Source: Laspinema palackyanum D2b (lineage in GTDB: Bacteria; Cyanobacteriota; Cyanobacteriia; Cyanobacteriales; Laspinemataceae). Taken from it: a stretch of DNA of 64,000 bases. Numbering within the stretch: the first letter of the stretch is position 1; each line of letters opens with the position of its first letter. The position numbers and the translations under genes were made by a program. Shown here piece by piece: positions 470 through 64,000 of the stretch. Under the pieces are notes generated by a model, which was given only the letters and a program-made list of their open reading frames with translations, searched no databases and was not told where the DNA came from. The stretch lies in NCBI RefSeq assembly GCF_025370835.1, contig NZ_JAMXFE010000013.1. One strand, given 5' to 3'.

Positions 470-960
470 CAAGAGTCATTGGTTGTTGGTGGTTGGTCAT
501 TGGTCATTGGTTGTTGGTCATTGGTTGTTTGTTGTTGGTCAGTAGTAATCTCCCCAATCTCCCCAATCTGACAACAGTAGGTTTTTTACGCTTAAGGGAA
601 CCTCTTGTCCCCTCCCCTTGGCAAGGGGAGGGTTAGGGTGGGGTCCTCTCTGACGTGGCGCAAGCCCCGTCAGGATGAATAAGTGGGTTAAAATGTCACG
701 CGCAAGCGCGATCGCCACGTCACGAAGAAAGAGGTTGAACCAACCTCCATACAGGTGCGGTAAGCGGAAGCTCTCCCGTAGGGAATCGCCTCCAAGAGTG
801 CATGACCTGGAGATCGCCCAAGAGGAACCCCACCCTAACCCTCCCCTTGTCAAGGGGAGGGGACCATCAGGTGCAGTGAAGCCTTAAAAACCTACTCTTG
901 TAAGATCTCCCCCATCTCCCCCATCTCCCTGATGTGAGATACCCACCCCACTCCACCTCT
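470..960. repeat. Composite repeat: TTGGTYR heptamer satellite (470-545), CTCCCCAAT/CTCCCCCAT short tandems (545-575, 905-940), and two inverted copies of a G/C hairpin CCCCTCCCCTTGGCAAGGGGAGGG (about 607-645 and 826-862) flanking a ~180 bp core
   Basis: Direct reading; each hairpin is self-complementary and the two copies are in inverted orientation. Confidence 0.6.
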
Positions 961-4038: not shown

Positions 4039-5352
4039 TCACTTCCCGAGTTTTTGCCAGAGGGAGAGGGCTACAAAAGTGACTAAACTGGCAACCCCTC
4101 CGCAAATTAAACTTAATAATAAGACCCCACTCAAACCTGAATTTGTCCCCGGGTTCACGGAGGAAACAGGAGGATTCATCGAAGAAGCGACGGCTACTAT
4201 ACAACCTGTCGCCACACCGACTCCCGCGATCGCCACTGCGGTTTTAACGGTGCGATCGCGCTGGGCCTGACAAATTTCCACCTGACCCTGAATCATCTGG
4301 GTTAGATGTTGTATCCGTTCCAAATTTGAGCGGAATGCATTGATATCCCCTTGCACTCTAGGGAGGTAAGTTTGTTTGACGGAGGCGCTGAATTGTTTTA
4401 AAAAGGTGAGGTCTGTTAACCCTAAACCATCAGCATCTTGTTCTAACTGATGGCAGTATTGCTCATAATTTTCAAGATGGATTTCCATCCAATTGAAATA
4501 GCTCTCTAACGTCGTGAATCCGGTGATTAATCCCGAGAGAGCATCCCTAGTGGTTTTGAGGTGATAGAGACTTAGGTGAGAATAATCAGCGATCGCCTCA
4601 ATCTGGTGATATTTGTCGATTAGCTGTTGTTTGAGCCGTTGACTTTGGCCGTGGGCCCAAACAATTTGATGCCGAGATAATAAAACTTGTTGCCATTGTT
4701 CATAAAATCCCCATCCCGCTTGAAACATTTCGCGATCGGGATACAGAAGCAGGAGTAAATAACTATTGCCTTCAATCGTCGCCCCAGTGTTGTCCCCAGA
4801 TGTCCGCCAAAACTCATGCAGTTTCACCCCCACATAGTCTCCTGTTGCTCGATGATGCCATCCTTCCGGAGAGATTAAGGTTTTATAGCTCTCTTCGGCC
4901 AGCTTTTCGATTTGAGTGGAATTGCCATGTTCCCAAACTCCTGAAATTAGCCAAGTTTGTCCTAAATTATCGGGGGAATAGGGGTTAGGGGTTAGGGGTT
5001 TTAGGGTACTCAGCAGACTCTGAATTTGATGGGCGTTATATCTTTCCTGAACTGAACCATCAAAGATTAAGGCATAAGTCTGATGGAGACTACGCCGCAG
5101 ATAGCGTCCGAGGATGGTGTGGTTATGTAGGGTTCCTTTAAATTTTAAATCGGCGGTGGGTTGGGACTGGATCGCGAGGAAAGTTTCCTGACAATCCGGG
5201 GCGATCGCATCGGGGATTAATCGAGAAATATCCCCCACTATTTTTTCTAAAACTGAGTGATAATTCCGTTGACTGCTTTCTAGGCTGATGCCTAACCCTT
5301 CTTTGAGATGGTAACTAAATAAATATAAGTTAGGAGCGTTGATTTCTAGCAT
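4039..5352 (-). CDS. Hypothetical protein (437 aa) with two C-terminal transmembrane helices; no recognisable domain
   Basis: Long ORF with good codon structure. C-terminus AVAIAGVGVATGCIVAVA...LLLSLICGGVASLVTFVALSL is hydrophobic. Confidence 0.6.
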   Translation of the reverse strand: MLEINAPNLYLFSYHLKEGLGISLESSQRNYHSVLEKIVGDISRLIPDAIAPDCQETFLAIQSQPTADLKFKGTLHNHTILGRYLRRSLHQTYALIFDGSVQERYNAHQIQSLLSTLKPLTPNPYSPDNLGQTWLISGVWEHGNSTQIEKLAEESYKTLISPEGWHHRATGDYVGVKLHEFWRTSGDNTGATIEGNSYLLLLLYPDREMFQAGWGFYEQWQQVLLSRHQIVWAHGQSQRLKQQLIDKYHQIEAIADYSHLSLYHLKTTRDALSGLITGFTTLESYFNWMEIHLENYEQYCHQLEQDADGLGLTDLTFLKQFSASVKQTYLPRVQGDINAFRSNLERIQHLTQMIQGQVEICQAQRDRTVKTAVAIAGVGVATGCIVAVASSMNPPVSSVNPGTNSGLSGVLLLSLICGGVASLVTFVALSLWQKLGK

Positions 5353-5604: not shown

Positions 5605-5841
5605 AAACGACTGAAGTCGTTACTATGAACGGGGGATAACGACTGAAGTCGTTACTACGAACGGGGGATAACGACTGAAGTTGTTACTACGAACGGGGGA
5701 TAACGACTGAAGTCGTTACTACGAACGGGGGATAACGACTGAAGTCGTTACTACGAACACTCCCCATCTCCCCCATCTCCCCCATCTTCCCCATCTTCCC
5801 CATCTTCCCCATCTTCCCCATCTTCCCCATCTTCCCCATCC
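5605..5841. repeat. Five tandem 32-bp units containing the hairpin AACGACTGAAGTCGTT (GGGGGATAACGACTGAAGTCGTTACTACGAAC), followed by a CCCCATCT(T) satellite
   Basis: Direct reading. Same family as 28541-28932, 37214-37680 and 55313-55490. Confidence 0.85.
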
Positions 5842-6166: not shown

Positions 6167-7048
6167 ATGACCTTCATTGCCACAATCCTCACCAGTTTAC
6201 TCTCAATTCTGGTGGTTCTTGTCGGGCCGAAGTTTTCGGATGAGAAACATCGCAATACAGTGCGCGCTGTGGCCCTGTTAATCGGCATTTTGGCCGCGAC
6301 AGCTTCCTTGTTGAAAACCTTTACGATTATCCCATCGGGCAAGGTTGGGGTGATCGAGGTGTTTGGGAAGGTAGACCCCCAACCCTTGAATCCCGGGGTG
6401 CATTGGGTGAACCCATTTGGAAATGTTTTGAAGTTTTCCACGCGCTTGCGGGATATGCCGGAAAAAATGGCAGCGACCTCCCAAGAAGGGTTAAACTTGG
6501 TGGTAGAGGGGACAATCCAATATCGCTTAGACCCGAATAGTGCAGCGGATCTGTATCAAAATGTGGGGGTTAATGATGGAGAAATCGTGCGATCGCGGTT
6601 TCAAGCGATTATGCGGGAAATTACATCCAGTTATCCCGCTAGAGATATTTACACGGCTAAACGAGAGGAAATCACCCGGCGACTGCGGTTATCCATGCGG
6701 GAGTCTTTAACGCCTCTGGGTTTTATTGTCGAAGAAGCCTTTCTCAAGGATGTGGCGCTACCGGAGAAATTACAAGCTGCCATTGAACAGAAAATGGAGG
6801 TAGAACAGGACAATCAGCGCATGGAGTTGGTGCTAGAAAAAGAGCGCCAAGAAGCGGAAAGAAAGCGCATTGAAGCCTTGGGAATTGCAGAGTATCAACA
6901 AATTATTTCCCCGGGTTTAACGTCGCAATTCTTGCAATGGCGCAATATTGAAGCAACCGATCGCCTTGCTAATTCTAATAACAGTAAGGTGGTGATTATG
7001 GGCGGGTCCGGCAATAATGCGACGACGCCGGTGATTCTGCAACCCTAG
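6167..7048 (+). CDS. SPFH/band-7 (prohibitin-like) membrane protein
   Basis: N-terminal TM helix, then a PSGKVGVIEVFGKV...LNLVVEGTIQYRL SPFH core and a C-terminal coiled coil. Confidence 0.85.
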   Translation: MTFIATILTSLLSILVVLVGPKFSDEKHRNTVRAVALLIGILAATASLLKTFTIIPSGKVGVIEVFGKVDPQPLNPGVHWVNPFGNVLKFSTRLRDMPEKMAATSQEGLNLVVEGTIQYRLDPNSAADLYQNVGVNDGEIVRSRFQAIMREITSSYPARDIYTAKREEITRRLRLSMRESLTPLGFIVEEAFLKDVALPEKLQAAIEQKMEVEQDNQRMELVLEKERQEAERKRIEALGIAEYQQIISPGLTSQFLQWRNIEATDRLANSNNSKVVIMGGSGNNATTPVILQP

Positions 7049-14512: not shown

Positions 14513-14560
14513 TTTCTTGTATCCCTCCAAGGGAACTCCAAAAAATAAAACCCCTAAACT

Positions 14561-14626
14561 GTTCGTAGTGACTCCTTCAGGAGTCCTCTTATTAAAGAAA
14601 CCCCTAAAGGGGTTACTACGAACGGT
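14561..14626. repeat. Diverged copy of the GTTCGTAGT...ACTACGAAC hairpin-repeat family (GACTCCTTCAGGAGTC and AACCCCTAAAGGGGTT hairpins)
   Basis: Flanked by GTTCGTAGTGA ... GTTACTACGAAC, the same terminal motifs as the ACGACT family. Confidence 0.5.
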
Positions 14627-14680
14627 TGGATGATTTATTTTTGCAATCCCCCAAGCAGTCTTTTTAGTTCTTGACGGGCG

Positions 14681-27789: not shown

Positions 27790-28527
27790 ATGTTACAGGT
27801 GTTGCAAAAATTTTCTGTATTGGGACTGCCGGTTCATATTACAACTAACTATCGAGACTGGTTACAGTCACGGTTGCAGCAACGCCAGGGTACTCAGGTG
27901 GTGACGCTGAATGCGGAAATGGCGATGCAAGCGCTAGAAAATCTGGAACTCGCTGAAGTGATTCATCAGGCGGATTTGGTGATTCCCGATGGTGCCGGAG
28001 TGGTGTTTTACTTTCTCGTCAGAGGTCGAAAAATCCAACGCTGTCCCGGCATTGAACTGGCGGAGTCCTTGGTGCAGTTAGCGGGGGATTTGGGGGAGGA
28101 CTGTTCCACCTTTTTCTTTGGGGGGAAACCGGGAATTGCGGAGATAGCGGCGAAGCGATGGCAAACGGAGTTACCGGCATTGGCGATCGCGGGGACCCAA
28201 GATGGGTATCTGTCTCCAGAGGATGAACCGGCGTTCAAAGCAAGACTGCAACAATTGCAACCGCGATTGATTTTAGTCGGATTAGGCGTTCCTCGACAAG
28301 AGTTTTGGATTCGAGAAAATCGCCATTTATGTCCCGAAGCAATTTGGGTGGGAGTTGGCGGGAGTTTCGATATTTGGTCGGGTCAAAAAGAGCGAGCACC
28401 CGTGTGGTTACAACGCCTCCAGATGGAGTGGGCCTACCGTCTCTATCAAGAACCCTGGCGCTGGCGACGGATGTTAGCATTACCCCACTTCGCCTGGATT
28501 TCCATGAAAACCGCCCTCCGGCAGTAA
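27790..28527 (+). CDS. WecB/TagA/CpsF-family glycosyltransferase (N-acetylmannosaminyltransferase-like)
   Basis: TLNAEMAM...DLVIPDGAGVV...FFGGKPG...LILVGLGVPRQEFWI is the family signature. Confidence 0.85.
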   Translation: MLQVLQKFSVLGLPVHITTNYRDWLQSRLQQRQGTQVVTLNAEMAMQALENLELAEVIHQADLVIPDGAGVVFYFLVRGRKIQRCPGIELAESLVQLAGDLGEDCSTFFFGGKPGIAEIAAKRWQTELPALAIAGTQDGYLSPEDEPAFKARLQQLQPRLILVGLGVPRQEFWIRENRHLCPEAIWVGVGGSFDIWSGQKERAPVWLQRLQMEWAYRLYQEPWRWRRMLALPHFAWISMKTALRQ

Positions 28528-28540
28528 GAAGGGTTCCCCT

Positions 28541-28932
28541 TGTTCGTAGTAACGCCTTCAGTCGTTCTCTTAGTTTGTAGTAACGACTTCAGTCGTTCTC
28601 TTTCCCAGTTCGTAGTAACGACTTCAGTCGTTCTCTTTCCCAGTTCGTAGTAACGACTTCAGTCGTTCTCTTAAGTTCGTTAAACCTCGCATCTTAAAAA
28701 TACTAAAGATCCGAGTTACTTTTCAACTTCCTAACTAAGATAACGACTGAAGTCGTTACTACGAACGGGGAATAACGACTGAAGGCGTTACTACGAACGG
28801 GGAATAACGACTGAAGTCGTTACTACGAACGGGGAATAACGACTGAAGGCGTTACTACGAATGGGGAATAACGACTGAAGTCGTTACTACGAACGGGGAA
28901 TAACGACTGAAGTCGTTACTACGAACGGGGAA
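28541..28932. repeat. Inverted super-array: 4 reverse-orientation units (GTTCGTAGTAACGACTTCAGTCGTTCTCTT...), a ~55-bp centre, then 6 forward 32-bp units (GGGGAATAACGACTGAAGTCGTTACTACGAAC)
   Basis: Direct reading. Each unit carries the ACGACT-GA-AGTCGT hairpin, and the arrays have opposite polarity around the centre. Confidence 0.85.
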
Positions 28933-28951
28933 GATCTCCATCCTCCCCAAA

Positions 28952-30847
28952 CTACGCCGATACCTGCCGCTGTGCTTGTTGTTCTTGGATGCGATCGAGG
29001 GTGCCGGTGGGGATGGAGGCGATGAGCGATCGCGTGTAGTCTTTTTGAGGGTTGCTGTAGATGCTTTCTGCGGGACCGACTTCTTCCACTTTGCCTTTAT
29101 TCATCACCAGAATGCGATCGCTCATAAACTTAACCACACTCAAATCATGGGAGATAAAAATATAGGTAAGTTTAAACTCCTCCTGTAATTCTTTTAACAA
29201 ATTCAGCACCTGCGCTTGCACCGATACATCTAAGGCAGAAACCGATTCATCGCAAATAATAAACTTAGGATTAAGCGCTAATGCTCTAGCAATACAAATC
29301 CGTTGTCGTTGACCTCCGGAAAACTCGTGGGGATAGCGATTCATCAATTCCGCATTTAATCCCACTCGTTCTAATAAATAGGCCGATCGCTCTCGTCGGT
29401 GGCGGGAACTCTCACCCACTCCATGTATTTTCAACGGTTCCATGACTAAGTTCCCAATGCTCATCCGGGGATTCAGGGAACTAAACGGATTTTGGAAAAC
29501 AATTTGCATTTCGCGGCGTACTTGTCGCAACGCTCTCCCTTCCAGTTTGCCTACATCTTGCCCTTCAAATAAGACATTTCCGGCAGTGGGTTCGATTAAT
29601 CTTAATAAGGTGCGGGCGAGGGTGGTTTTACCACAACCAGATTCCCCCACTAATCCCAAGGTTTCTCCTGGATACACTTCAAAAGAAACCCCATTCACCG
29701 CCATAATATAACGTTGGGTTTCTCCAAAGATACCGCGCACGGGAAAAGCGACTTCTAGGTTCCGAACTTCTAGCAAGGGGGACTTTAGCTGTAAGTTGCT
29801 TAACCGGCGTTGTATGTCTGCCTCACTGACTTCTTGGATGTTTGTTACTCCGTCGGATTCGTGAGTTTCGCTGTGTTTTTCCCGAATCTCGCGATCGCCA
29901 CTGGCATTGGTGACCACTTCCATAAAATCCGAGACTGTCGGCAGATAAATTAACCGGCGATCGGGACGGGGACGACAAGCGAGTAAACCTTTTGTATAAG
30001 GATGTTGGGGATTAGAAAAAATTTGGAGAACCGAACCCTGTTCGACAATTTTACCTTGGTACATCACCGCCACTTGGTCGGCGATTTCCGCAATCACCCC
30101 GAGGTCATGGGTAATAAACATCATGGACATTCCTCGGCGATCGCGCAAATCCCGCATTAATTCCAGAATTCTCGCCTGGACTGTCACATCCAAGGCCGTT
30201 GTCGGTTCATCGGCAATCAGCAACGTAGGGTCGCAGGAAATCGCCATAGCAATCATCACCCGCTGAATTTGACCCCCAGACAATTCATGGGGAAAGCGCT
30301 TCAAAATCGCCAGCTTTTGCTGATTCACCTGTTGCATGATTTCCCGTTCCGTTGCCGTTTCAGGCAACTGCACCTGTTCGCGCAACTCTGCATCACTCGG
30401 CAACAACTTCACCTCTTGTAAAGCAGCGATCGCCCGTCTTCTCGCCTCAGATTCTGATACCTGATGATGCAACAAAATCGCTTCAGTCAGTTGAAATCCA
30501 ATATTATAAACCGGGTTCAGAGAACTCATGGGTTCCTGAAAAATCATCGAAATTTTGCCCCCGCGATACTGCTGTTTCGCTTGGGGAGGCAGCGCCAATA
30601 AATCGATAGGTTCTTCTTCCTGAGTTCCGCGAAACCAAATTTCGCCCCCGGAAATCCGTCCCGGAGTCGGAACTAATCCCATCACCGCCAGGGAGGTGAC
30701 GGATTTCCCGGAACCCGACTCCCCCACGATCCCCACGGTTTGACCGCGTTGGACCTTAAAGGAAATTTGGTCAACCGCTTTAACGGGTCTTCCTTCGGTG
30801 AAAAATTGGACTTGCAGGTTGCGAACATCAAGAACGGTGTCTGTCAT
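28952..30847 (-). CDS. ABC transporter ATP-binding protein with two fused ATPase domains (oligopeptide/nickel Dpp/Opp D-F type)
   Basis: Two Walker A motifs (GESGSGKS; GESGCGKT), two LSGGQ signatures, two Walker B motifs, and C-terminal oligopeptide-ABC motifs. Confidence 0.9.
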
Positions 30848-35254: not shown

Positions 35255-35397
35255 AACGACTCCGGTGTAAAACCTCGGGTTAAAGTAGAGGTAATTTGAT
35301 GAATTACCCCTACTCAACTCCTGAACGAGTTATCCTCTGTTCAGGCAGCGTTACACCCTAGGACTGGGTATCAAACCCGGTCTAAATATTCCAAAAC

Positions 35398-36799: not shown

Positions 36800-37213
36800 A
36801 TGTTTAAAACTGTTCTTTTTCCAATTGATGAAAGTCGCGAGTCCCGAGAAGCGGCGGATACGGTGGCCCAAATGGTCAAAACCTTCAACTCGCGCTTAAT
36901 TTTGCTGTCTGTGAATGAGGTTGAGGTGGAGGGAGAGGAACCCCCACCTCCAGAACGGGTGATGACCCCGGAGGCGATCGCAGAATTACTCAAAAATGCT
37001 CAGTCCATGTTTTCTAAGCTAGGTATCGAAGCGGAAACCATTGAACGGGAAGGAAAACCCGCCTTTATCATTTGCGATGTAGCGGACGAAATTAATGCGG
37101 ATCTCGTGATTATGGGCTGTCGCGGGATTGGGTTAACAGAAGAGGGTCTCGCCGATAGCGTCACCAACCGAGTGATTAATTTGGCCCCTTGTCCCGTGTT
37201 GATTGTACCGTAG
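36800..37213 (+). CDS. Universal stress protein (UspA family). Start placed at MFKTVLFPID; the ORF track's upstream ATG at 36713 is less likely.
   Basis: FPIDES...VIMGCRGIGL..G..SVT..V...PCPVLIV is the Usp signature. Confidence 0.85.
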   Translation: MFKTVLFPIDESRESREAADTVAQMVKTFNSRLILLSVNEVEVEGEEPPPPERVMTPEAIAELLKNAQSMFSKLGIEAETIEREGKPAFIICDVADEINADLVIMGCRGIGLTEEGLADSVTNRVINLAPCPVLIVP

Positions 37214-37680
37214 GGGAGATGGGGGGAGATGGGGGAGATGGGGGAGATGGGGAAGCGGTAGTAACAACTTCAGTCATTATCCCTCTTAGTTCGTAGTAAC
37301 GACTTCAGTCGTTCTCCCTCTTAGTTCGTAGTAACGACTTCAGTCGTTCTACCTCTTAGTTCGTAGTAACGACTTCAGTCGTTCTTACGGTACCTTAAAA
37401 TGTAGCATTTTAAGCTTTATGGTTTGAGCCCTAGACGTGGTTAATCCGTAAACGACTGAAGTCGTTACTACGAACAGGGGATCCGGAAACGACTGAAGTC
37501 GTTACTACGAACCGGGGATCCGGAAACGACTGAAGTCGTTACTACGAACCGGGGATCCGGAAACGACTGAAGTCGTCACTACGAACCGGGGATCCGGAAA
37601 CGACTGAAGTCGTTACTACGAACCGGGGAGAATGGTCTCTCCCCCAATCCTCCCCATCCTCCCCATCCCTCCATCCACAT
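37214..37680. repeat. ~470-bp super-palindrome: GGGGAGAT satellite, 4 reverse hairpin units, a ~60-bp centre, 5 forward 37-bp units (AAACGACTGAAGTCGTTACTACGAACCGGGGATCCGG), then CCCCATCC satellite
   Basis: Direct reading. Mirror-image organisation around 37390-37450. Lies between usp and ylqF. Confidence 0.85.
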
Positions 37681-37697
37681 TTATCAAGTATTTAACA

Positions 37698-38561
37698 ATG
37701 ACAACTCCTGACATTCAATGGTATCCCGGCCATATTTCTAAGGCGGAAAAACAACTGGCGGAACAATTGAAGCTGGTGGATGTGGTGTTGGAGGTCCGGG
37801 ATGCGCGGATTCCTTTGTCTACCCATCATCCCCAGGTGCCGCAGTGGGTGGGGAGTAAAAGCCGAGTTTTGATTATTAATCGGGTGGATACGATTTTGCC
37901 ACCCCTGCGCGATCGCTGGCATCTGTGGTTTCAACGTCAGGGAGAAACGCCTTATTTTACCAATGCTCAAGATGGGACGGGGATCAAGGCGATATCTAAG
38001 GCGGCGAAGGAGGCGGGGATTGCTCTAAATCAACGTCGTCTCGATCGCGGGATGCGCCCTCGCGCTGTTCGGGCGGTGGTGATTGGGTTTCCTAATGTGG
38101 GCAAATCGGCGTTGATTAATCGCTTAGTCGGGCGTCGTGTGGTGGAAAGCGCCCGACGTGCGGGGGTGACTAAGCAACTGCGTTGGGTGCGGATTTCTGA
38201 TGAACTGGAACTGTTGGATGCCCCTGGGGTGATTCCCAGTAAGTTAGAGGACCAAGATGCTGCTTTAAAATTAGCCATTTGTGATGATATTGGCGAGGCA
38301 GCTTATGATAATCAACGGGTGGCATCGGCATTTGTGGATATGGTGAAAGAGATTGAGGCAATGGGGACCGCATGGATGCCACCGGAGGCGTTGCGATCGC
38401 GCTATAAACTTGACCCTCTCCCCATGACGGGGGAAGATTATCTCCATAATTTTGCTGAATCCCGATATGAAGGCGATGTGGAACGGGCGGCAAGGCAAAT
38501 TCTCAATGATTTTCGCAAGGGATTGTTAGGTCAAATTCCCCTAGAATTGCCTCCGGAATAA
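37698..38561 (+). CDS. rbgA: Ribosome biogenesis GTPase A (YlqF/RbgA), circularly permuted GTPase
   Basis: WYPGHISKA..., the permuted motif order, and the G1 motif GFPNVGKSALIN. Confidence 0.9.
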   Translation: MTTPDIQWYPGHISKAEKQLAEQLKLVDVVLEVRDARIPLSTHHPQVPQWVGSKSRVLIINRVDTILPPLRDRWHLWFQRQGETPYFTNAQDGTGIKAISKAAKEAGIALNQRRLDRGMRPRAVRAVVIGFPNVGKSALINRLVGRRVVESARRAGVTKQLRWVRISDELELLDAPGVIPSKLEDQDAALKLAICDDIGEAAYDNQRVASAFVDMVKEIEAMGTAWMPPEALRSRYKLDPLPMTGEDYLHNFAESRYEGDVERAARQILNDFRKGLLGQIPLELPPE

Positions 38562-46844: not shown

Positions 46845-47943
46845 GTTAATTCTTTTCCTATCTCTCTAGTACCACAACATTAACATTTAGATAGGCTCGT
46901 TATGGATAGAATCGCCGGTTTTTGATGAGTGGTCTGGGATAACGATTCCTGCTCGGGTTTGAGCGGGTCACTTGTAATCTAGGCTACCCATTTTCATCCA
47001 GAGGTTGAGCGGGCGGAATTCATGGCTCAGATCACGCTTTTGACGCTGATCCGAGGGGTGGATTCCAGAATCTTCCCTCGTTTCGCCATTTTTACGCCGT
47101 TCCTTCAACTTCTATACCTCTATCATAAACAATTTTTTGGATTTTAGGACAGCAAGGGTTAAAATATTTTTTGAAGGGTTTGTATCTAGGGAATCTCTTT
47201 ATTGTAACATTTTTTTCTGCTTTTGCCGAGGCTGAAATCTTAAATTTTTCTACAGTTTTAAAAAAATCCGTGGATCGATGGGAGTGACTCAGGAACAGAG
47301 CGTTGAACCGATGCCGAAGCTCAAGTCAGGATCTAAGTGGAAGATTACCCGGGGACATCGCCCAGGATTTTATTATATTTTAAGCTTTCTTTTGAGCTTG
47401 TGGATGCAGTTGATGCTACGGAGAACGAGTGGGAAACTGCCTCGGGTTGCCGAATCCTCTGCCACCACAGTCCCGGATGGTTCGGTGGGGAGCCCACCCC
47501 GTTGCTACATCCGAAAAATTGGGTCCTCCTCAATCGGTGATGTTGGTTTTGTCATGTTATATATAAATTCACCCACCTACCCCTGTCAAGGTGATAAATT
47601 TGATAACGAAAAAGAGTGATGGAATGTAGGGGCGCTTCGAGAAGCGCCTGTCCAAGAACTCAATTTGATAACGAACAAGAGTGAGGGAATGTAAGAGAAT
47701 TATATACAATAGTTTAATATTTGATTGGCTCAGGACTTACGCAATCTATAAAAATGAACCACCCCCAAATGTAGGGGCGATTCGCGAATCGCCTCTACAT
47801 TTGGGTTTCGCCCTCCAAAAATGCGTAATTTCTGTAATCGCATCTGTATCCCCTGAGCCCAGGAACCGCTCTATCTCAATTTCAATACATCAGCAGCTTA
47901 CTCACTCGCTACATTCACCCCAAAAAACCGGGTTCTGCCCACC

Positions 47944-49305
47944 CTAATGACTCAAATTCATAAGATAGTGTTGCATCACCGGGTCTAGGGTTAAAGCCGT
48001 AGATTTGTAGAGTAAATTTCGTTTTTTCAGGGATTGAATCGCCTTGAAAAAATCAGAATCTGATAAAAGTTCCGGGGGTTTATGGCTAATCTCCACAGGT
48101 TGTTCTTGGTTAGCTAACCACCGAATCAGGACTTGCTCCGATTCACAGAGGCGTTGATAATGTTGTTTGAGAATCGGTTCTATATTGCCTAAATAGAGGG
48201 GAGGATAGGAGAGGAATGTTTCCACACTCCCATCAAATAGCTCCAGGATAGCTGTAGCGATGATATTTAACCATAAAGGGTTGCCATTATAAAGTTGAAT
48301 CAGCCGTGACCATTGAGGTTGGTCCTGGAGTTTCCTAGCGGTGAGGAGTTGGCTGGCTGATTTTCCTAAACCGGCAAGTTGGAGAGTTTTGCAGGAGCAT
48401 TCTTCCGCTTCTAGGGTAGCAACTTCTAGGGGCTGTTCCCAACTGAGGAGCAACAAACAACTGCCATGAGAAAATCGCCCCATTTCTTCGAGGAAACGAC
48501 CATAGTTTTGGTATCCGGGGCAGTAATTTCCGACTAACTCCCCAGGGGTCAAAGTGTCTTGAAAATCGTCAAGGATGATTAAGCAGCGGTGGGTTCTGAG
48601 ATAGTCTAAAAAAGAGTTACGAGAGTTTAAATAGGTGATGAGTGATTGATTTTGGATGGGGGAAGTTGGGGCGATAAATTCGATGATATGGCTTTGCAGA
48701 GCGTTGAGGGTGGGGAATTTGCGATGACTGCGCCACAGGATGCGATCGAAGTTGTCTTTGATCTCTTCCACCAGTTGTCTAGCCAGGGCAGTTTTACCGA
48801 TACCGGAGAGTCCAGTGAGGGTGATAATCCGGCTTTGTTCGGTCAGAATCCATTGTTTGAGGGTCGCCAGTTCGTCCGTGCGGTTGTAGAAGCGGAGATT
48901 ATCAGGGGCTTGGCTGAGGTCGTGGCGAGGTTCTGGTTGGGTTTTGGGGGTGGAGGGCGATCGGTTTTTCTTTTTTTTGGAATTATTGTATGGTTCGCTA
49001 CAGATATTTATGTTATTTCCAATATGCACCACATCATTGTAATAAGAAAAGACCCCATTTTCGATAAGGGAGCGAACATTCTTTTTTTTCACATCCTCTC
49101 CCAACAGATCCGACAGGAGTTTCCATAATTCCGATGCTGACTTCCGGACATGATCGTTGCTGCAATGGTATTCCTCAGCGATCTCCTTATATTCCTTGTG
49201 TTCCCAGACCCCCTCCAAAATAGCCCGTTGCAGCGAGTCCAGATGCTTCCCAGTTTTCGCAAAAATCAACTCATCCGTCCACTGCAAGGCTTCTTGAATC
49301 TCCAT
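47944..49305 (-). CDS. STAND-class NB-ARC NTPase (453 aa) with an N-terminal LuxR/GerE-like HTH domain; no C-terminal repeat sensor
   Basis: HTH LDSLQRAILEGVWEHKEYKEIAEEYHCSNDHVRKSASELWKLL; P-loop GLSGIGKT; Walker B LIILDD; sensor-1-like GSCLLLLS; GxP-like GNPLWLNIIA. Confidence 0.8.
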   Translation of the reverse strand: MEIQEALQWTDELIFAKTGKHLDSLQRAILEGVWEHKEYKEIAEEYHCSNDHVRKSASELWKLLSDLLGEDVKKKNVRSLIENGVFSYYNDVVHIGNNINICSEPYNNSKKKKNRSPSTPKTQPEPRHDLSQAPDNLRFYNRTDELATLKQWILTEQSRIITLTGLSGIGKTALARQLVEEIKDNFDRILWRSHRKFPTLNALQSHIIEFIAPTSPIQNQSLITYLNSRNSFLDYLRTHRCLIILDDFQDTLTPGELVGNYCPGYQNYGRFLEEMGRFSHGSCLLLLSWEQPLEVATLEAEECSCKTLQLAGLGKSASQLLTARKLQDQPQWSRLIQLYNGNPLWLNIIATAILELFDGSVETFLSYPPLYLGNIEPILKQHYQRLCESEQVLIRWLANQEQPVEISHKPPELLSDSDFFKAIQSLKKRNLLYKSTALTLDPVMQHYLMNLSH

Positions 49306-61978: not shown

Positions 61979-63712
61979 ATGAGTTATAGAATGGACCGCC
62001 GCGCTTATGCGGAAACTTATGGCCCAACGGTGGGCGATCGCATTCGGTTAGCCGATACAGAATTATTTATTGAAGTTGAACAAGACTTTACCACCTACGG
62101 TGATGAAGTGAAATTTGGTGGGGGGAAAGTCATCCGCGATGGCATGGGACAATCCCCCATTGCCAATGATAGCGGGGCGGTGGATTTAGTGATTACCAAT
62201 GCGGTGATTCTGGATTGGTGGGGAGTGGTGAAAGCCGATGTGGGAATCCGGGATGGCAAAATATTTAAAATTGGTAAGGCGGGAAATCCTTATATCCAAG
62301 ATCATGTTGATATTATTATCGGTCCGGGAACCGAGGCGATCGCCGGGGAAGGGATGATTCTCACAGCCGGGGGAATCGATGCCCATATACACTTTATTTG
62401 TCCCCAACAGATTGAGGTGGCGATCGCCTCGGGAATTACCACCATGTTAGGCGGGGGAACTGGACCCGCCACCGGGACAAATGCTACCACCTGTACCCCG
62501 GGCCCTTGGAACATTCACCGGATGTTACAAGCAGCCGATGCCTTCCCTGTGAATCTCGGATTTATGGGAAAAGGCAACAGCAGCAGACCCCGGGCCTTGG
62601 TGGAACAGGTTCTCGCGGGTGCAATGGGATTAAAATTACATGAAGACTGGGGAACCACTCCAGCGGCGATCGATACTTGTCTGACAGTTGCCGATGAGTA
62701 TGATGTGCAAGTTGCTATCCATACCGATACCCTGAATGAAGCGGGATTTGTGGAACAAACCATCGCCGCCTTTAAAGACCGCACCATTCATACTTACCAT
62801 ACCGAAGGGGCTGGTGGGGGACACGCCCCGGATATTATCAAGGTTTGCGGACAAAAAAATGTCCTCCCCTCTTCCACCAATCCCACCCGCCCTTATACCG
62901 TTAATACCTTAGAAGAACATCTGGATATGCTGATGGTTTGTCACCATCTCGATCGCAGTATTCCCGAAGATGTCGCCTTTGCTGAATCCCGCATCCGTCG
63001 GGAAACCATTGCTGCCGAGGATATTTTACATGACCTCGGGGCGTTTAGTATGATTTCCTCCGATTCTCAGGCAATGGGACGGGTGGGAGAAACCATCATT
63101 CGCACTTGGCAAACGGCCCATAAAATGAAGGTACAGCGCGGGTTTTTGTCCCCGGATGACCGGAAAGATGGGATTCCCAGTACCACAGAACATGATAATT
63201 TCCGGGCGCGACGTTATATTGCTAAATATACGATTAATCCCGCAATTGCTCATGGGATTTCTAATTATGTAGGGTCGATTGAAGAAGGCAAACTGGCGGA
63301 TTTATGTTTGTGGCGTCCGGCATTTTTTGGGGTGAAACCGGAACTGGTGATCAAAGGGGGGGCGATCGCCTATGCCCAAATGGGAGATGCCAATGCCAGT
63401 ATTCCCACTCCCCAACCGATCCATTCTCAGCCGATGTTTGCTAGTTTTGGAGGGTCTCGGACGGCGACATCTTTTACTTTTGTCTCCCAAGCGGCATTGG
63501 AGTTAGAAATACCAACTCAGTTAGGGTTGCGAAAACAGGCGATCGCGGTTTCAGACACGCGGAAGGTGGGGAAACGGGATATGAAATTAAATGAGACCCT
63601 GCCTTATATTGAAGTTGATCCAGAAACCTATCAAGTTTGGGCGGATGGTCAATTACTCACCTGTGAACCGGCACAAGTGTTGCCCTTGGCGCAGCGGTAT
63701 TTTCTGTTTTAA
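61979..63712 (+). CDS. ureC: Urease alpha subunit
   Basis: [29 protein letters not shown]...GIDAHIHF...MVCHHLD and the other active-site motifs. Confidence 0.95.
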
Positions 63713-64000
63713 GTTGCAACAACCGGCGGGTTTTAAGTTGCAACAACCGGCGGGGGTTAAAACCCCCGCCTAATAGCTAAAGTCGGTTGAAACCGACTGT
63801 GAAAGTCTTATTTAGTGGTGTTTTTAGTCGGTTGAAACCGACTGTGAAAATCTTATTTAGTGGTGTTTTTAGTCGGTTTTAACCGACTTTAGCTATTAGC
63901 TGGGGGTTTTAACCCCCAGCGGGCTGTGAAAATCTTATTTAGTGGTGTTTTTAGTCGGTTTTAACCGACTTTAGCTATTAGCTGGGGGTTTTAACCCCCA
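63713..64000. repeat. Palindromic repeat block of the same family as 23911-24175 (GGGGGTTAAAACCCCCGCC; AGTCGGTTGAAACCGACT; GTGGTGTTTTTAGTCGGTT(TT)AACCGACT direct repeats), running to the window end
   Basis: Direct reading; at least 3 tandem units. Confidence 0.7.

What the first reader, a model, noticed from the sequence alone, without database searches (positions are those of the whole stretch)
28541..28932. ACGACTGAAGTCGT hairpin repeats organised as giant inverted arrays (super-palindromes) at several intergenic sites
The unit (32 or 37 bp; core AACGACTGAAGTCGTTACTACGAAC) occurs as 4-6 tandem copies in one orientation. After a 55-60 bp centre it occurs as 4-6 copies in the opposite orientation (28541-28932 and 37214-37680). 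Each block is capped by GGGGAGAT/CCCCATCT-type satellites, so the whole 400-470-bp block is one long imperfect palindrome. Partial arrays occur at 5605-5841, 14561-14626 and 55313-55490. These blocks can extrude cruciforms, may act as bidirectional terminators or recombination hot spots, and the 55 kb copy truncates a gene duplicate, which implies mobility. The units abut directly without unique spacers, so this is not a CRISPR array.
Basis: seen in the sequence. Interest (0 to 1): 0.5.

Follow-up and report, generated by a model that had tools for sequence, protein, structure and literature searches.

The report
Hairpin repeat arrays: REP-type selfish DNA
The giant inverted repeat blocks are real, but they are a cyanobacterial family of small GTAG-tagged palindromic repeats (REP/REPIN-like, like the REP/BIME elements of E. 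coli and Pseudomonas) whose two arms have been multiplied on the spot, so they are an unusually showy member of a known kind, not a new kind.

Summary
A 25-nt unit (tag GTTYGTAGT plus a 7-bp stem and 2-nt loop) occurs about 25 times in the window, against about 0.2 expected by chance. It forms two 390-470-bp imperfect palindromes (28542-28926 and 37254-37623), one one-sided array (5606-5758) and two small clusters (14561-14623 and 55314-55488).

The unit has the anatomy of a GTAG-tagged REP:
- The stems co-vary.
- Head-to-head pairs with the GTAG tag outside are preferred.
- Orientation alternates, with two classes of gap, as in BIMEs.
- There are no target-site duplications.

The same family occurs in other Laspinema, Oscillatoria and Phormidium genomes and in Nostoc. 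The exact 25-mer also occurs in high-GC Anaerolineae, Chloroflexia and Planctomycetota contigs.

Orthologous sites in close relatives carry 4+5, 5+1, 2+1 or 0 units. Linkers are constant within an arm and can often be rebuilt from the arm's own two flanks. The arms therefore grow by local tandem duplication and turn over quickly.

No cognate RAYT transposase was found. Six RAYT lineages that I examined carry other REP types. There are no T-tract terminators, no Rfam family matches and there is no CRISPR anatomy. The claimed "gene duplicate" at 55 kb is a decayed repeat copy.

Verdict: new member of a known kind, of moderate to low interest.

The parts
5606..5758 (+). One-sided array of 5 REP units with a 32-bp period and linker GGGGGAT. 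It reads hairpin then ACTACGAAC on the + strand. It lies between divergent genes: 4039-5352 (-) and 6167-7048 (+, Band_7).
5761..5840 (.). 9-bp satellite (TCCCCATCT), about 9 copies, capping the outer end of the 5.6-kb array.
   Evidence: such satellites follow 38 of 202 outer array ends in related genomes
14561..14623 (.). Head-to-head REP pair with variant, fully compensated stems: GTTCGTAGT-GACTCCT-TC-AGGAGTC and AACCCCT-AA-AGGGGTT-ACTACGAAC. It folds as one long hairpin.
   Evidence: -39.3 kcal/mol, z = -7.3
28542..28667 (+). Left arm of the 28.5-kb block: 4 units reading GTTYGTAGT then hairpin on the + strand (28542, 28573, 28608, 28643), with linkers CTCTTAG or CTCTTTCCCA. It starts 14 nt after the stop codon of the WecG-family gene 27790-28527.
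28668..28741 (.). Locus-specific, AT-rich centre. It begins with a truncated tag (GTTCGT) and holds an imperfect hairpin. It is homologous to the centre at the orthologous site in Oscillatoria sp. HE19RPO (L086).
28742..28926 (-). Right arm: 6 units with a 32-bp period and linker GGGGAAT. The GTAG tag is on the - strand, so the tags face outward. Units 2 and 4 carry the variant GGCGTT. The linker equals the 3' flank GGGGA plus the 5' flank AT.
28927..28950 (.). Vestigial satellite (GGGGAAGATCTCCATCCTCCCC) just before the stop codon of the convergent ABC-ATPase gene 28952-30847 (-).
37213..37252 (+). G-rich satellite (GGGGAGATG), about 4 copies, starting in the stop codon of the Usp gene. It is the mirror image of the satellite at 37639-37676.
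37254..37383 (+). Left arm of the 37-kb block: one degenerate unit (37254-37278) plus 3 intact units (37289, 37324, 37359), with a 35-bp period and linker CTCCCTCTTA.
37384..37450 (.). Locus-specific centre. It is conserved in the orthologous spacer of L040 and L211 and is absent, together with the units, from L212.
37451..37623 (-). Right arm: 5 units with a 37-bp period and linker CGGGGATCCGGA. The linker equals the 3' flank CGGGGA plus the 5' flank TCCGGA as kept in L040.
37639..37676 (-). C-rich satellite (CCCCATCCT), about 4 copies, upstream of the GTPase gene that starts at 37698.
55314..55488 (.). BIME-like cluster. In order: a unit (+) at 55314-55338; a 22-nt spacer; a unit (-) at 55361-55385; a 78-nt centre with two extra 12-bp hairpins (55389 and 55433); and a unit (+) at 55464-55488. 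The stretch 55361-55488 folds as a Y-shaped hairpin.
   Evidence: (-88 kcal/mol, z = -15.3)
55533..55575 (.). Decayed second copy of the spacer plus a unit (GCGGTAGCTTTCCTCGTGGTTTGTGGG...).
   Evidence: read directly

Best explanation
**What it is**

These are members of a family of GTAG-tagged repetitive extragenic palindromes (REPs). The unit is 25 nt: an unpaired tag GTTYGTAGT followed by a 7-bp stem with a 2-nt loop. The usual loop is TC, so the apex reads CTTCAG.

**How it is arranged**

Units occur mostly as head-to-head pairs with the tags outside. These pairs are REPIN-like and fold into one long hairpin in single-stranded nucleic acid. Units also occur in BIME-like clusters of alternating orientation.

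**How the blocks arose**

The giant blocks are head-to-head pairs in which each arm has been amplified in place. The unit is duplicated in tandem together with a few nucleotides of both flanks. This explains three things:
- The linker is constant within an arm.
- The linker differs between arms and between sites.
- The linker can often be read as '3' flank + 5' flank'.

**Steps that are inferred, not shown**

- The founding pair is moved as single-stranded DNA by an HUH/Y1 tyrosine transposase of the RAYT type acting in trans.
- It prefers the tips of existing palindromes, such as the inverted GGGGAGATG/CATCTCCCC satellites.
- Arm growth is by replication slippage at hairpins, or by copying of an excised circle junction.

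The blocks are selfish, fast-evolving DNA. They have side effects (cruciform potential, assembly breaks) rather than a dedicated cellular device.
For: **Anatomy**
- Tag plus hairpin in all about 25 window units.
- It matches the published definition of GTAG REPs: stems of 6-13 bp, loops commonly TY, HH/TT dimers, clusters made 'by tandem reiteration with flanking DNA', and hosts in Cyanobacteria, Chloroflexi and the PVC group (PMC3733652).

**Hairpin under selection**
- The test used 70 distinct units chosen by tag alone.
  - 72.9% of cells are paired, against 56.1 +/- 1.5 in shuffles.
  - There are 69 double-sided changes, against 29.5 +/- 4.4 (0 of 500 shuffles reach this).
- Alternative stems seen: AACGACT, AACGCCT, AACCGCT, AACCGAT, AACGGCT, AAGGACT, GACTCCT and AACCCCT.

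**Arrangement**
- 48 head-to-head pairs have gaps of mostly 55-125 bp.
- 20 tail-to-tail pairs have gaps of 15-25 bp.
- Alternating tandem clusters occur in L050, L026, L113 and L116.
- Many centres carry two further conserved hairpins.

**Mobility and turnover**
- The Usp-GTPase spacer holds 4+5 units in the window, 5+1 in L211, 2+1 in L040 and none in L212, which keeps only the inverted satellites.
- The WecG/ABC site holds 4+6 units in the window and 5+8 in L086. The centre is homologous but the linkers differ.

**Arm growth**
- The linker can be rebuilt from the array's own flanks with at most 1 mismatch in 18 of 43 arrays, against 10% in controls.

**Insertion signature**
- No target-site duplication of 3 nt or more in 0 of 32 blocks.
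- The flanks are more inverted-complementary than controls (3.5 of 8 positions, against 2.51 +/- 0.27).

**Spread**
They come from Laspinema, Oscillatoria and Phormidium, and from high-GC, HIP1-free Chloroflexota and Planctomycetota contigs.
- The same family occurs in a Nostoc plasmid.
Against: **No cognate RAYT was found**
- There is none in the window or in the 120 repeat-bearing loci.
- All six RAYT lineages examined are flanked by other REP types:
  - GTAGGGGC...
  - GTAGGTYGGGT...
  - GTAGGATGCGTTA...
  - GTAGGGTGCGC...
  - GT[AG]G-GA-stem-CTCCGT-stem
  - an untagged CGGCTGACAGAGCAGCC hairpin with a 16-bp tandem repeat, beside the Chlorohelix gene (L217)
- The transposase step is therefore inference.

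**Unusual features for a REP**
- Direct (head-to-tail) arrays are reported as rare for most REP families (PMC3733652).
- The conserved tag is 9 nt, not 4.
- A 25-mer identical across three phyla is unusual for REPs, which are normally species- or genus-specific.

**Weak points in the data**
- The 'empty' site in L212 comes from a short-read assembly.
- The repeat census was seeded with the exact 25-mer, which biases it towards that stem.
Confidence: 0.72

Rival explanations
1. Functional RNA or DNA elements kept by the host. Arrays of identical hairpins would act as bidirectional terminators or 3'-end mRNA stabilisers. Alternatively they would act as multi-site decoys for a hairpin-binding protein (as CsrB does), or as gyrase/IHF-type topology sites (as E. 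coli BIMEs do).
For: - The hairpin is maintained by compensatory change.
- The 28.5-kb block lies exactly between convergent genes, 14 and 20 nt from their stop codons.
- The tag and loop are conserved across phyla.
- Published REPs do have such secondary roles (PMC3733652).
Against: - No T run follows any hairpin, and there are no terminator-like hits on the units.
- The 5.6-kb array lies between divergent genes, and the Nostoc pair lies inside an operon.
- Wobble pairs show no strand preference (7 G-T against 7 A-C).
- No Rfam family matches.
- A close strain lacks the whole element at the same site.
- Unit numbers vary freely, from 0 to 16.
Confidence: 0.12
2. Plain satellite DNA. A palindromic minisatellite would expand by slippage and unequal crossing-over, with no transposition at all. 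Its dispersed copies would be ancient and vertically inherited.
For: - The arms clearly grow by local tandem duplication.
- They lie next to other micro- and minisatellites: GGGGAGATG, and CAATGAC of the STRR type.
Against: - The same 25-nt unit sits at many unrelated sites, as singletons and as oriented pairs.
- It is nested at the centre of other palindromes, with presence/absence polymorphism.
- It occurs in three phyla.
- Slippage alone cannot seed new loci.
Confidence: 0.08
3. MITEs derived from a DDE-type insertion sequence. The GTTCGTAGTAAC... ends would be terminal inverted repeats, mobilised by a classical transposase.
For: - Head-to-head pairs look like terminal inverted repeats.
- In Anaerolineae the pair is embedded in a roughly 150-bp element with longer inverted ends (CTAGTGCTTAGTTAAG...).
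Against: - No target-site duplication of 3 nt or more in 0 of 32 blocks.
- Each end is itself a hairpin with co-varying stems and an unpaired GTAG tag, which is the hallmark of REPs rather than of terminal inverted repeats.
- Single units and direct arrays are common.
- No recurrent neighbouring gene appears in 22 non-cyanobacterial loci.
Confidence: 0.04
4. A degenerate or miniature CRISPR-like array, or an assembly artefact.
For: - The repeat length (25 nt) and partial dyad symmetry resemble CRISPR repeats.
- Short-read assemblies often break at these arrays. About 20 of the 120 loci have units within about 100 bp of a contig end.
Against: - The linkers are 6-12 nt long and identical within an arm.
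- The arrays come in mirror-image pairs.
- The same architecture is found in several independent assemblies, including contigs of 0.36 to 1.36 Mb that read through the arrays.
Confidence: 0.01

Closest known systems
GTAG-tagged REPs (Di Nocera et al. 2013, PMC3733652); REPs of E. coli, Pseudomonas and Stenotrophomonas (SMAG)
   Same: - An unpaired GTAG tag next to a short stem-loop.
- A 7-bp stem and a TY loop.
- Sub-families with complementary stem changes.
- Extragenic location.
- Singletons, HH and TT dimers, and clusters made by tandem reiteration with flanking DNA.
- Hosts that include Cyanobacteria, Chloroflexi and Planctomycetes.
   Different: - The conserved tag is 9 nt (GTTYGTAGT).
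- Long direct arrays on both arms of a head-to-head pair, where head-to-tail arrangements are said to be rare.
- The exact 25-mer is shared across three phyla.
- I could not match the unit to any of the 24 published families, because their consensus sequences are in a figure that is not held.
REPIN-RAYT systems (Nunvar 2010; Bertels & Rainey 2011, PMC3116915; Ton-Hoang 2012)
   Same: - Inverted REP doublets that fold into one long hairpin.
- No target duplication.
- Population-level presence/absence.
- The proposed model derives arrays from circular intermediates.
   Different: No cognate RAYT has been identified. The six RAYT lineages examined from Cyanobacteria, Chloroflexota and metagenomes carry other REP types.
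BIMEs of E. coli
   Same: REPs alternate in orientation with two alternating spacer classes (about 15-25 bp and about 55-125 bp), and the whole motif is repeated in tandem (L050, L026, L113, L116).
   Different: - The window's large blocks are direct arrays within each arm, not strictly alternating units.
- IHF, gyrase or Pol I binding is untested.
Cyanobacterial STRR satellites and small dispersed repeats
   Same: The caps (GGGGAGATG)n and the neighbouring (CAATGAC)n are short tandem repeats of the STRR style. The units are small dispersed elements that nest in palindromes.
   Different: The core unit is a tagged hairpin, not a heptamer satellite. The nonamer cap is not one of the STRR sequences I know of (from my own knowledge).

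Membership tests
GTAG-tagged REP super-family | A short (20-40 bp) stem-loop with an unpaired GTAG (GTRG) motif at one end | tested here: met
   GTTYGTAGT plus a 7-bp stem and 2-nt loop in all units
GTAG-tagged REP super-family | Many dispersed copies in extragenic space | tested here: met
   - Five intergenic sites in 64 kb.
GTAG-tagged REP super-family | Sub-families that differ by complementary stem changes | tested here: met
   At least 8 alternative fully paired stems; 69 double-sided changes against 29.5 +/- 4.4 in shuffles
GTAG-tagged REP super-family | Organisation as singletons, HH/TT dimers and clusters | tested here: met
   163 singletons; 48 HH pairs and 20 TT pairs; arrays of up to 16 units
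REPIN-RAYT system | Inverted doublets that form a long hairpin | tested here: met
   Folds of 55361-55488 and 14555-14630, with z = -15.3 and -7.3
REPIN-RAYT system | A single-copy RAYT (HUH/Y1) gene flanked by the same REPs in the host genome | tested here: inconclusive
   - No RAYT in the window or in the 120 loci.
- Six RAYT lineages carry other REPs.
REPIN-RAYT system | RAYT binds and cleaves the single-stranded REP at the tag | not testable with these tools
   Needs biochemistry
BIME | REPs of alternating orientation separated by alternating conserved linkers; binding of IHF and gyrase | tested here: inconclusive
   Alternation with two gap classes is seen. Protein binding is not testable.
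CRISPR array | Repeats separated by unique spacers of similar length | tested here: not met
   Linkers are 6-12 nt and identical within an arm
MITE of a DDE transposon | Terminal inverted repeats flanked by a target-site duplication | tested here: not met
   0 of 32 blocks have a direct repeat of 3 nt or more at their ends
Intrinsic (rho-independent) terminator | A GC-rich hairpin followed by a T run | tested here: not met
   The hairpins are followed by ACTACGAAC or CTC. There are no scan hits on the units.
Any Rfam RNA family | A score at or above the family's gathering threshold | tested here: not met
   Only sub-threshold miRNA-precursor models match the long hairpins

The most novel reading that the evidence does not exclude
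This could be an orphan REP family whose 9-nt tag and loop are conserved from Cyanobacteria to Chloroflexota and Planctomycetota. It would be served either by a still unrecognised subclass of HUH/Y1 enzyme or by a non-RAYT mechanism. That enzyme would build direct arrays by copying 31-37-nt excised minicircles, with the linker being the circle junction, and would target the tips of G-quadruplex-type satellite palindromes.
Probability: 0.12. Interest if true: 0.6.

Novelty: new member of a known kind. Interest (0 to 1): 0.3.

Why it matters
- It gives Laspinema-type cyanobacteria a defined REP family. The family explains many assembly breaks and false CRISPR-like or tandem-repeat calls.
- It provides a natural series (0, 2+1, 5+1, 4+5 units at one site) for studying how REP clusters are born and grow.
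- The exact 25-mer is shared by three phyla and no matching transposase was found. The family is therefore a good handle for finding which HUH enzyme, if any, recognises it, and for testing horizontal spread of REP systems in microbial mats.
- It is not a new kind of system.

Tried and rejected
**CRISPR.** Rejected, because the linkers are constant.

**Known RNA family.** The Rfam gathering and E-value modes gave nothing relevant.

**Terminators and promoters.** The consensus scans were empty on the units.

**Contamination as the cause of the Chloroflexi hits.** Rejected. Those contigs have 0.53-0.69 GC (all but one at 0.55 or above) and 0-1 HIP1 sites, against 0.475 GC and 97 HIP1 sites in the window.

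**Hunt for a RAYT.**
- Regex and tblastn on the window and the 120 loci found nothing.
- Group-4 RAYT loci from metagenomes carry GTAGGGGC REPs.
- The 180-aa cyanobacterial/Anaerolineae RAYT carries GTAGGTYGGGT REPs.
- RAYTs on plasmids of Leptolinea, Chlorohelix, a Chloroflexota bacterium, Kovacikia and Gloeocapsa carry other REPs.
- The Chlorohelix RAYT clade carries GT[AG]G-GA-stem-CTCCGT REPs.
- None has the GTAGTAAC type.

**Recurrent neighbouring genes.** None were found in the non-cyanobacterial loci.

**Plasmid and phage collections.** There was no array hit in plasmids and no 25-mer in viral contigs. One related pair was found on a Nostoc plasmid.

**Literature.**
- A sequence-string search found nothing relevant.
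- The supplements of the REP and RAYT papers contain neither this unit (PMC3733652) nor any Oscillatoria entry (PMC6006769 and PMC5581495); a further search of the PMC3733652 supplements found only host-species lists and an alignment with no cyanobacterial RAYT.
- Searches on REPs with Oscillatoria, and on Laspinema with repeats, found nothing relevant.

**Strand test for an RNA-level role.** Wobble asymmetry was null.

**Orthologous sites in other strains.** Look-ups with four window proteins failed, because no gene with exactly that product is on record.
Full report
**1. Observation**

The pattern is real and far beyond chance.
- The 14-mer ACGACTGAAGTCGT, with up to 2 mismatches, gives 50 matches on the two strands, against 0.22 expected.
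- The tail GTTACTACGAAC gives 28 matches, against 0.12 expected.

Reading the sequence and running Tandem Repeats Finder give five sites.
- **28.5 kb.** The left arm (28542-28667) has 4 units and a 35-bp period. A 74-bp centre follows. The right arm (28742-28926) has 6 units and a 32-bp period, in the opposite orientation.
- **37 kb.** The left arm (37254-37383) has one degenerate and three intact units, with a 35-bp period. A 67-bp centre follows. The right arm (37451-37623) has 5 units and a 37-bp period. The block is flanked by (GGGGAGATG)n on the left and its complement on the right.
- **5.6 kb.** A one-sided array of 5 units (5606-5758) is followed by 9 copies of TCCCCATCT.
- **14.5 kb.** A pair with different stems (14561-14623).
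- **55 kb.** Three single units in alternating orientation (55314-55488).

Within an arm the linker between cores is constant. Between arms it differs. A block is therefore a palindrome of cores only. As single-stranded DNA, 28530-28945 folds at -145 kcal/mol, z = -20.7.

**2. Anatomy of the unit**

On the strand that reads GTTCGTAGT-AACGACT-TC-AGTCGTT, the unit has two parts: a 9-nt unpaired tag that contains GTAG, and a 7-bp stem with a 2-nt loop.

A scan for GTAGT followed by a perfect hairpin finds 24 sites in the window, against 2.3 in shuffles. Two of them have different, fully complementary stems: GACTCCT and AACCCCT.

All five sites are intergenic.
- The 28.5-kb block lies between a WecG-type glycosyltransferase gene and a convergent ABC ATPase gene.
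- The 37-kb block lies between a Usp gene and a co-directional GTPase gene.
- The 5.6-kb array lies between divergent genes.
- The 55-kb cluster lies downstream of a major-vault-protein homologue.

No hairpin is followed by a T run, and the consensus scans find no terminators or promoters on the units. Rfam finds nothing at gathering scores. In E-value mode it finds only sub-threshold miRNA-precursor models, which match any long hairpin.

**3. Relatives elsewhere**

The window is from a Laspinema cyanobacterium. Its PGK protein is identical to those of three Laspinema assemblies.

- Most are from Laspinema, Oscillatoria sp. HE19RPO and Phormidium, often as arrays.
- Twenty-two loci, about twenty of them labelled Anaerolineae, Chloroflexia, Chloroflexota or Planctomycetota, carry single copies or pairs.

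The second group is not contamination. All but one of those contigs have 0.53-0.69 GC and essentially no HIP1 sites, whereas the window has 0.475 GC and 97 HIP1 sites. The exception is L018, an unclassified bacterial bin with 0.45 GC and 8 HIP1 sites.

In these contigs the unit is paired head-to-head with a partner. The partner keeps the tag and the loop but has another stem: AACCGCT, AACCGAT, AACGGCT, GGCGACT or GAGCGAT. The pair often sits at the centre of a longer inverted repeat.

A Nostoc edaphicum plasmid carries the same design between ctaE and ctaD: GGTTTGTAGT-GGGGACT-TT-AGTCCTC ... AAGGACT-GA-AGTCCTT-ACTACGAAC.

Seventy distinct units were selected by the tag alone.
- 72.9% of stem cells pair, against 56.1 +/- 1.5 in shuffles.
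- There are 69 double-sided changes, against 29.5 +/- 4.4 (0 of 500 shuffles reach this).
- Slid controls all score lower.

Wobble pairs are symmetric (7 G-T, 7 A-C). There is therefore no sign that one transcribed strand is the selected form.

**4. Arrangement**

The census covered the window and the 120 loci.
- There are 163 singletons and 84 arrays of 2-16 units, with periods of 31-37 bp.
- Head-to-head neighbours (tags outside) number 48, mostly with gaps of 55-125 bp.
- Tail-to-tail neighbours number 20, with gaps of 15-25 bp.
- Several loci repeat the alternating motif in tandem (L050, L026, L113, L116).

Many head-to-head centres share two further 12-bp-stem hairpins: CGTGACTTGGC-n4-GCCAAGTCACG and TGTCATGGC-n4-GCCATGACA. 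The window's 55-kb element is of this type and folds as a Y-shaped hairpin at -88 kcal/mol, z = -15.3.

Blocks have no target-site duplication: 0 of 32 have a direct repeat of 3 nt or more. Their outer flanks are more inverted-complementary than controls (3.5 of 8 positions, against 2.51 +/- 0.27). The palindrome therefore extends beyond the units.

Of 202 outer array ends, 38 are followed within 30 nt by a CCCCATC-type satellite.

**5. Dynamics**

*The Usp-GTPase spacer*, in genomes of about 93% flank identity or closer, varies as follows.
- The window has satellite, 4 units, centre, 5 units, satellite.
- L211 has 5+1 units and no left satellite.
- L040 has 2+1 units and a longer right satellite.
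- In L213 the contig ends inside the array.
- L212 has no units and no centre, only about 12 G-rich and about 14 C-rich satellite copies facing each other.

*The WecG/ABC site* in Oscillatoria sp. HE19RPO (L086, 94% flank identity) has 5+8 units. The centre is homologous but the linkers are completely different, and two units have a flipped loop.

*Origin of the linkers.* In the window's right arms the linker is the first bases of the 3' flank joined to the last bases of the 5' flank: GGGGA+AT at 28.7 kb and CGGGGA+TCCGGA at 37.5 kb. Across 43 arrays this reconstruction works with at most 1 mismatch in 42%, against 10% when flanks are taken from another array.

The arms therefore arise by tandem duplication of one unit together with a few flanking bases. 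They turn over faster than the surrounding genes diverge.

About 20 contigs of short-read assemblies end within these arrays.

**6. Mechanism**

*Shown.*
- The unit is a tagged hairpin whose stem is maintained by compensatory change.
- Oriented doublets and alternating clusters are the usual arrangement.
- Doublets nest in palindromes.
- There is no target duplication.
- Orthologous sites differ in presence/absence and in copy number.
- Linkers are derived from the flanks.

*Inferred.* The founding doublet moves as single-stranded DNA through an HUH/Y1 (RAYT-type) enzyme acting in trans, as proposed for REPs and REPINs (PMC3116915, PMC3733652, PMC6006769). Arms then expand either by slippage at hairpins or by copying of an excised circle junction. 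Both routes would give the observed '3' flank + 5' flank' linker, so they cannot be told apart here.

*The weak point is the enzyme.*
- No RAYT lies in the window or in the 120 loci.
- Every RAYT lineage I could examine has a different REP.
  - Group-4 (subclass 2.4) RAYTs carry GTAGGGGC...GCCC, also inside the gene.
  - The 180-aa cyanobacterial/Anaerolineae RAYT carries GTAGGTYGGGT.
  - Leptolinea, Chloroflexota ZRK35, Kovacikia and Gloeocapsa carry GTAGGGGCGGAT, GTAGGGTGCGC and GTAGGATGCGTTA.
  - Metagenomic relatives of the Chlorohelix RAYT carry GT[AG]G-GA-stem-CTCCGT-stem.
  - The Chlorohelix gene itself is flanked by an untagged hairpin and a 16-bp tandem repeat.

**7. Comparison with what is known, and verdict**

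The elements meet every sequence-level criterion of the GTAG-tagged REP super-family. That super-family was already reported in Cyanobacteria, Chloroflexi and Planctomycetes, and tandem reiteration together with flanking DNA is described for it. They behave like REPINs and BIMEs.

Membership of a REPIN-RAYT system is unproven.

The following were tested and not met:
- CRISPR;
- a DDE-type MITE;
- an intrinsic terminator;
- any Rfam family.

The non-CRISPR call and the suspicion of mobility are also right. The 'gene duplicate' and 'terminator' readings are not supported.

Four features are somewhat unusual:
- long direct arrays on both arms;
- G-rich and C-rich satellite caps;
- a 9-nt tag;
- a 25-mer shared by three phyla.

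I file it as a new member of a known kind, with interest 0.3. A 12% chance remains that an unrecognised enzyme or an array-building mechanism lies behind it.

Noticed in passing
window 55594-58242 (-): An 882-aa ORF has the full major vault protein architecture: Vault repeats, Vault_2/3/4 and MVP_shoulder, with E-values down to 1e-65. This is a eukaryote-typical protein encoded in a cyanobacterium.
   Followed up: partly
window 63706-64000: A different family of hairpin repeats runs to the end of the window. The hairpins are AGTCGGTTGAAACCGACT, AGTCGGTTTTAACCGACT and GGGGGTTTTAACCCCC, arranged in 24-, 45- and 82-bp tandem units.
   Followed up: no
window 47626-47798 and 35285-35313: Other GTAG-tagged REP types occur in the same genome: GTAGGGGCGCTTC-ga-GAAGCGCC and GTAGGGGCGATTC-gc-GAATCGCC (the type that flanks Group-4 RAYTs), and GTAG[AG]GGTAATT pairs. 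The host therefore carries several REP families.
   Followed up: partly
window 62130-62420 (-): Rfam hit to 5_ureB_sRNA (79.5 bits), antisense inside the urease alpha-subunit gene 61979-63712. It most likely reflects conservation of the coding sequence rather than a demonstrated sRNA.
   Followed up: partly
window 547-569, 905-929, 475-541: The same 9-bp satellite (ATCTCCCCC) also occurs on its own, away from REP units. STRR-like 7-bp repeats (TTGGTTG / GTCATTG) occur nearby.
   Followed up: no
L212 1638-1893 (Laspinema JAMXFC, Usp-GTPase spacer): A pure inverted satellite: about 12 G-rich nonamers face about 14 C-rich nonamers across 15 nt, with no REP. The G-rich side has a G-quadruplex-type pattern (G4-5 N4, repeated).
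   Followed up: partly
L217 1590-1760 (Chlorohelix allophototropha plasmid): A RAYT-like gene is followed directly by about 10 tandem copies of a 16-bp unit (GGAGCAGCCTCTCACT) that begins with a hairpin also found upstream of the gene. This is another case of a direct array next to a Y1 transposase.
   Followed up: no
L121-L200 (metagenomic Group-4 RAYT loci): GTAGGGGC-type REPs sit inside the RAYT reading frame, at the segment encoding GAGPRACP...GQPQGVAPT. This agrees with the report of REP insertions within subclass-2.4 tnpA genes (PMC6006769).
   Followed up: partly
window 59793-60063: In-frame 15-, 6- and 12-bp tandem repeats lie at the start of a CHAT-domain protein gene (59669-61717). 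A NB-ARC/STAND NTPase gene lies at 47944-49305.
   Followed up: no
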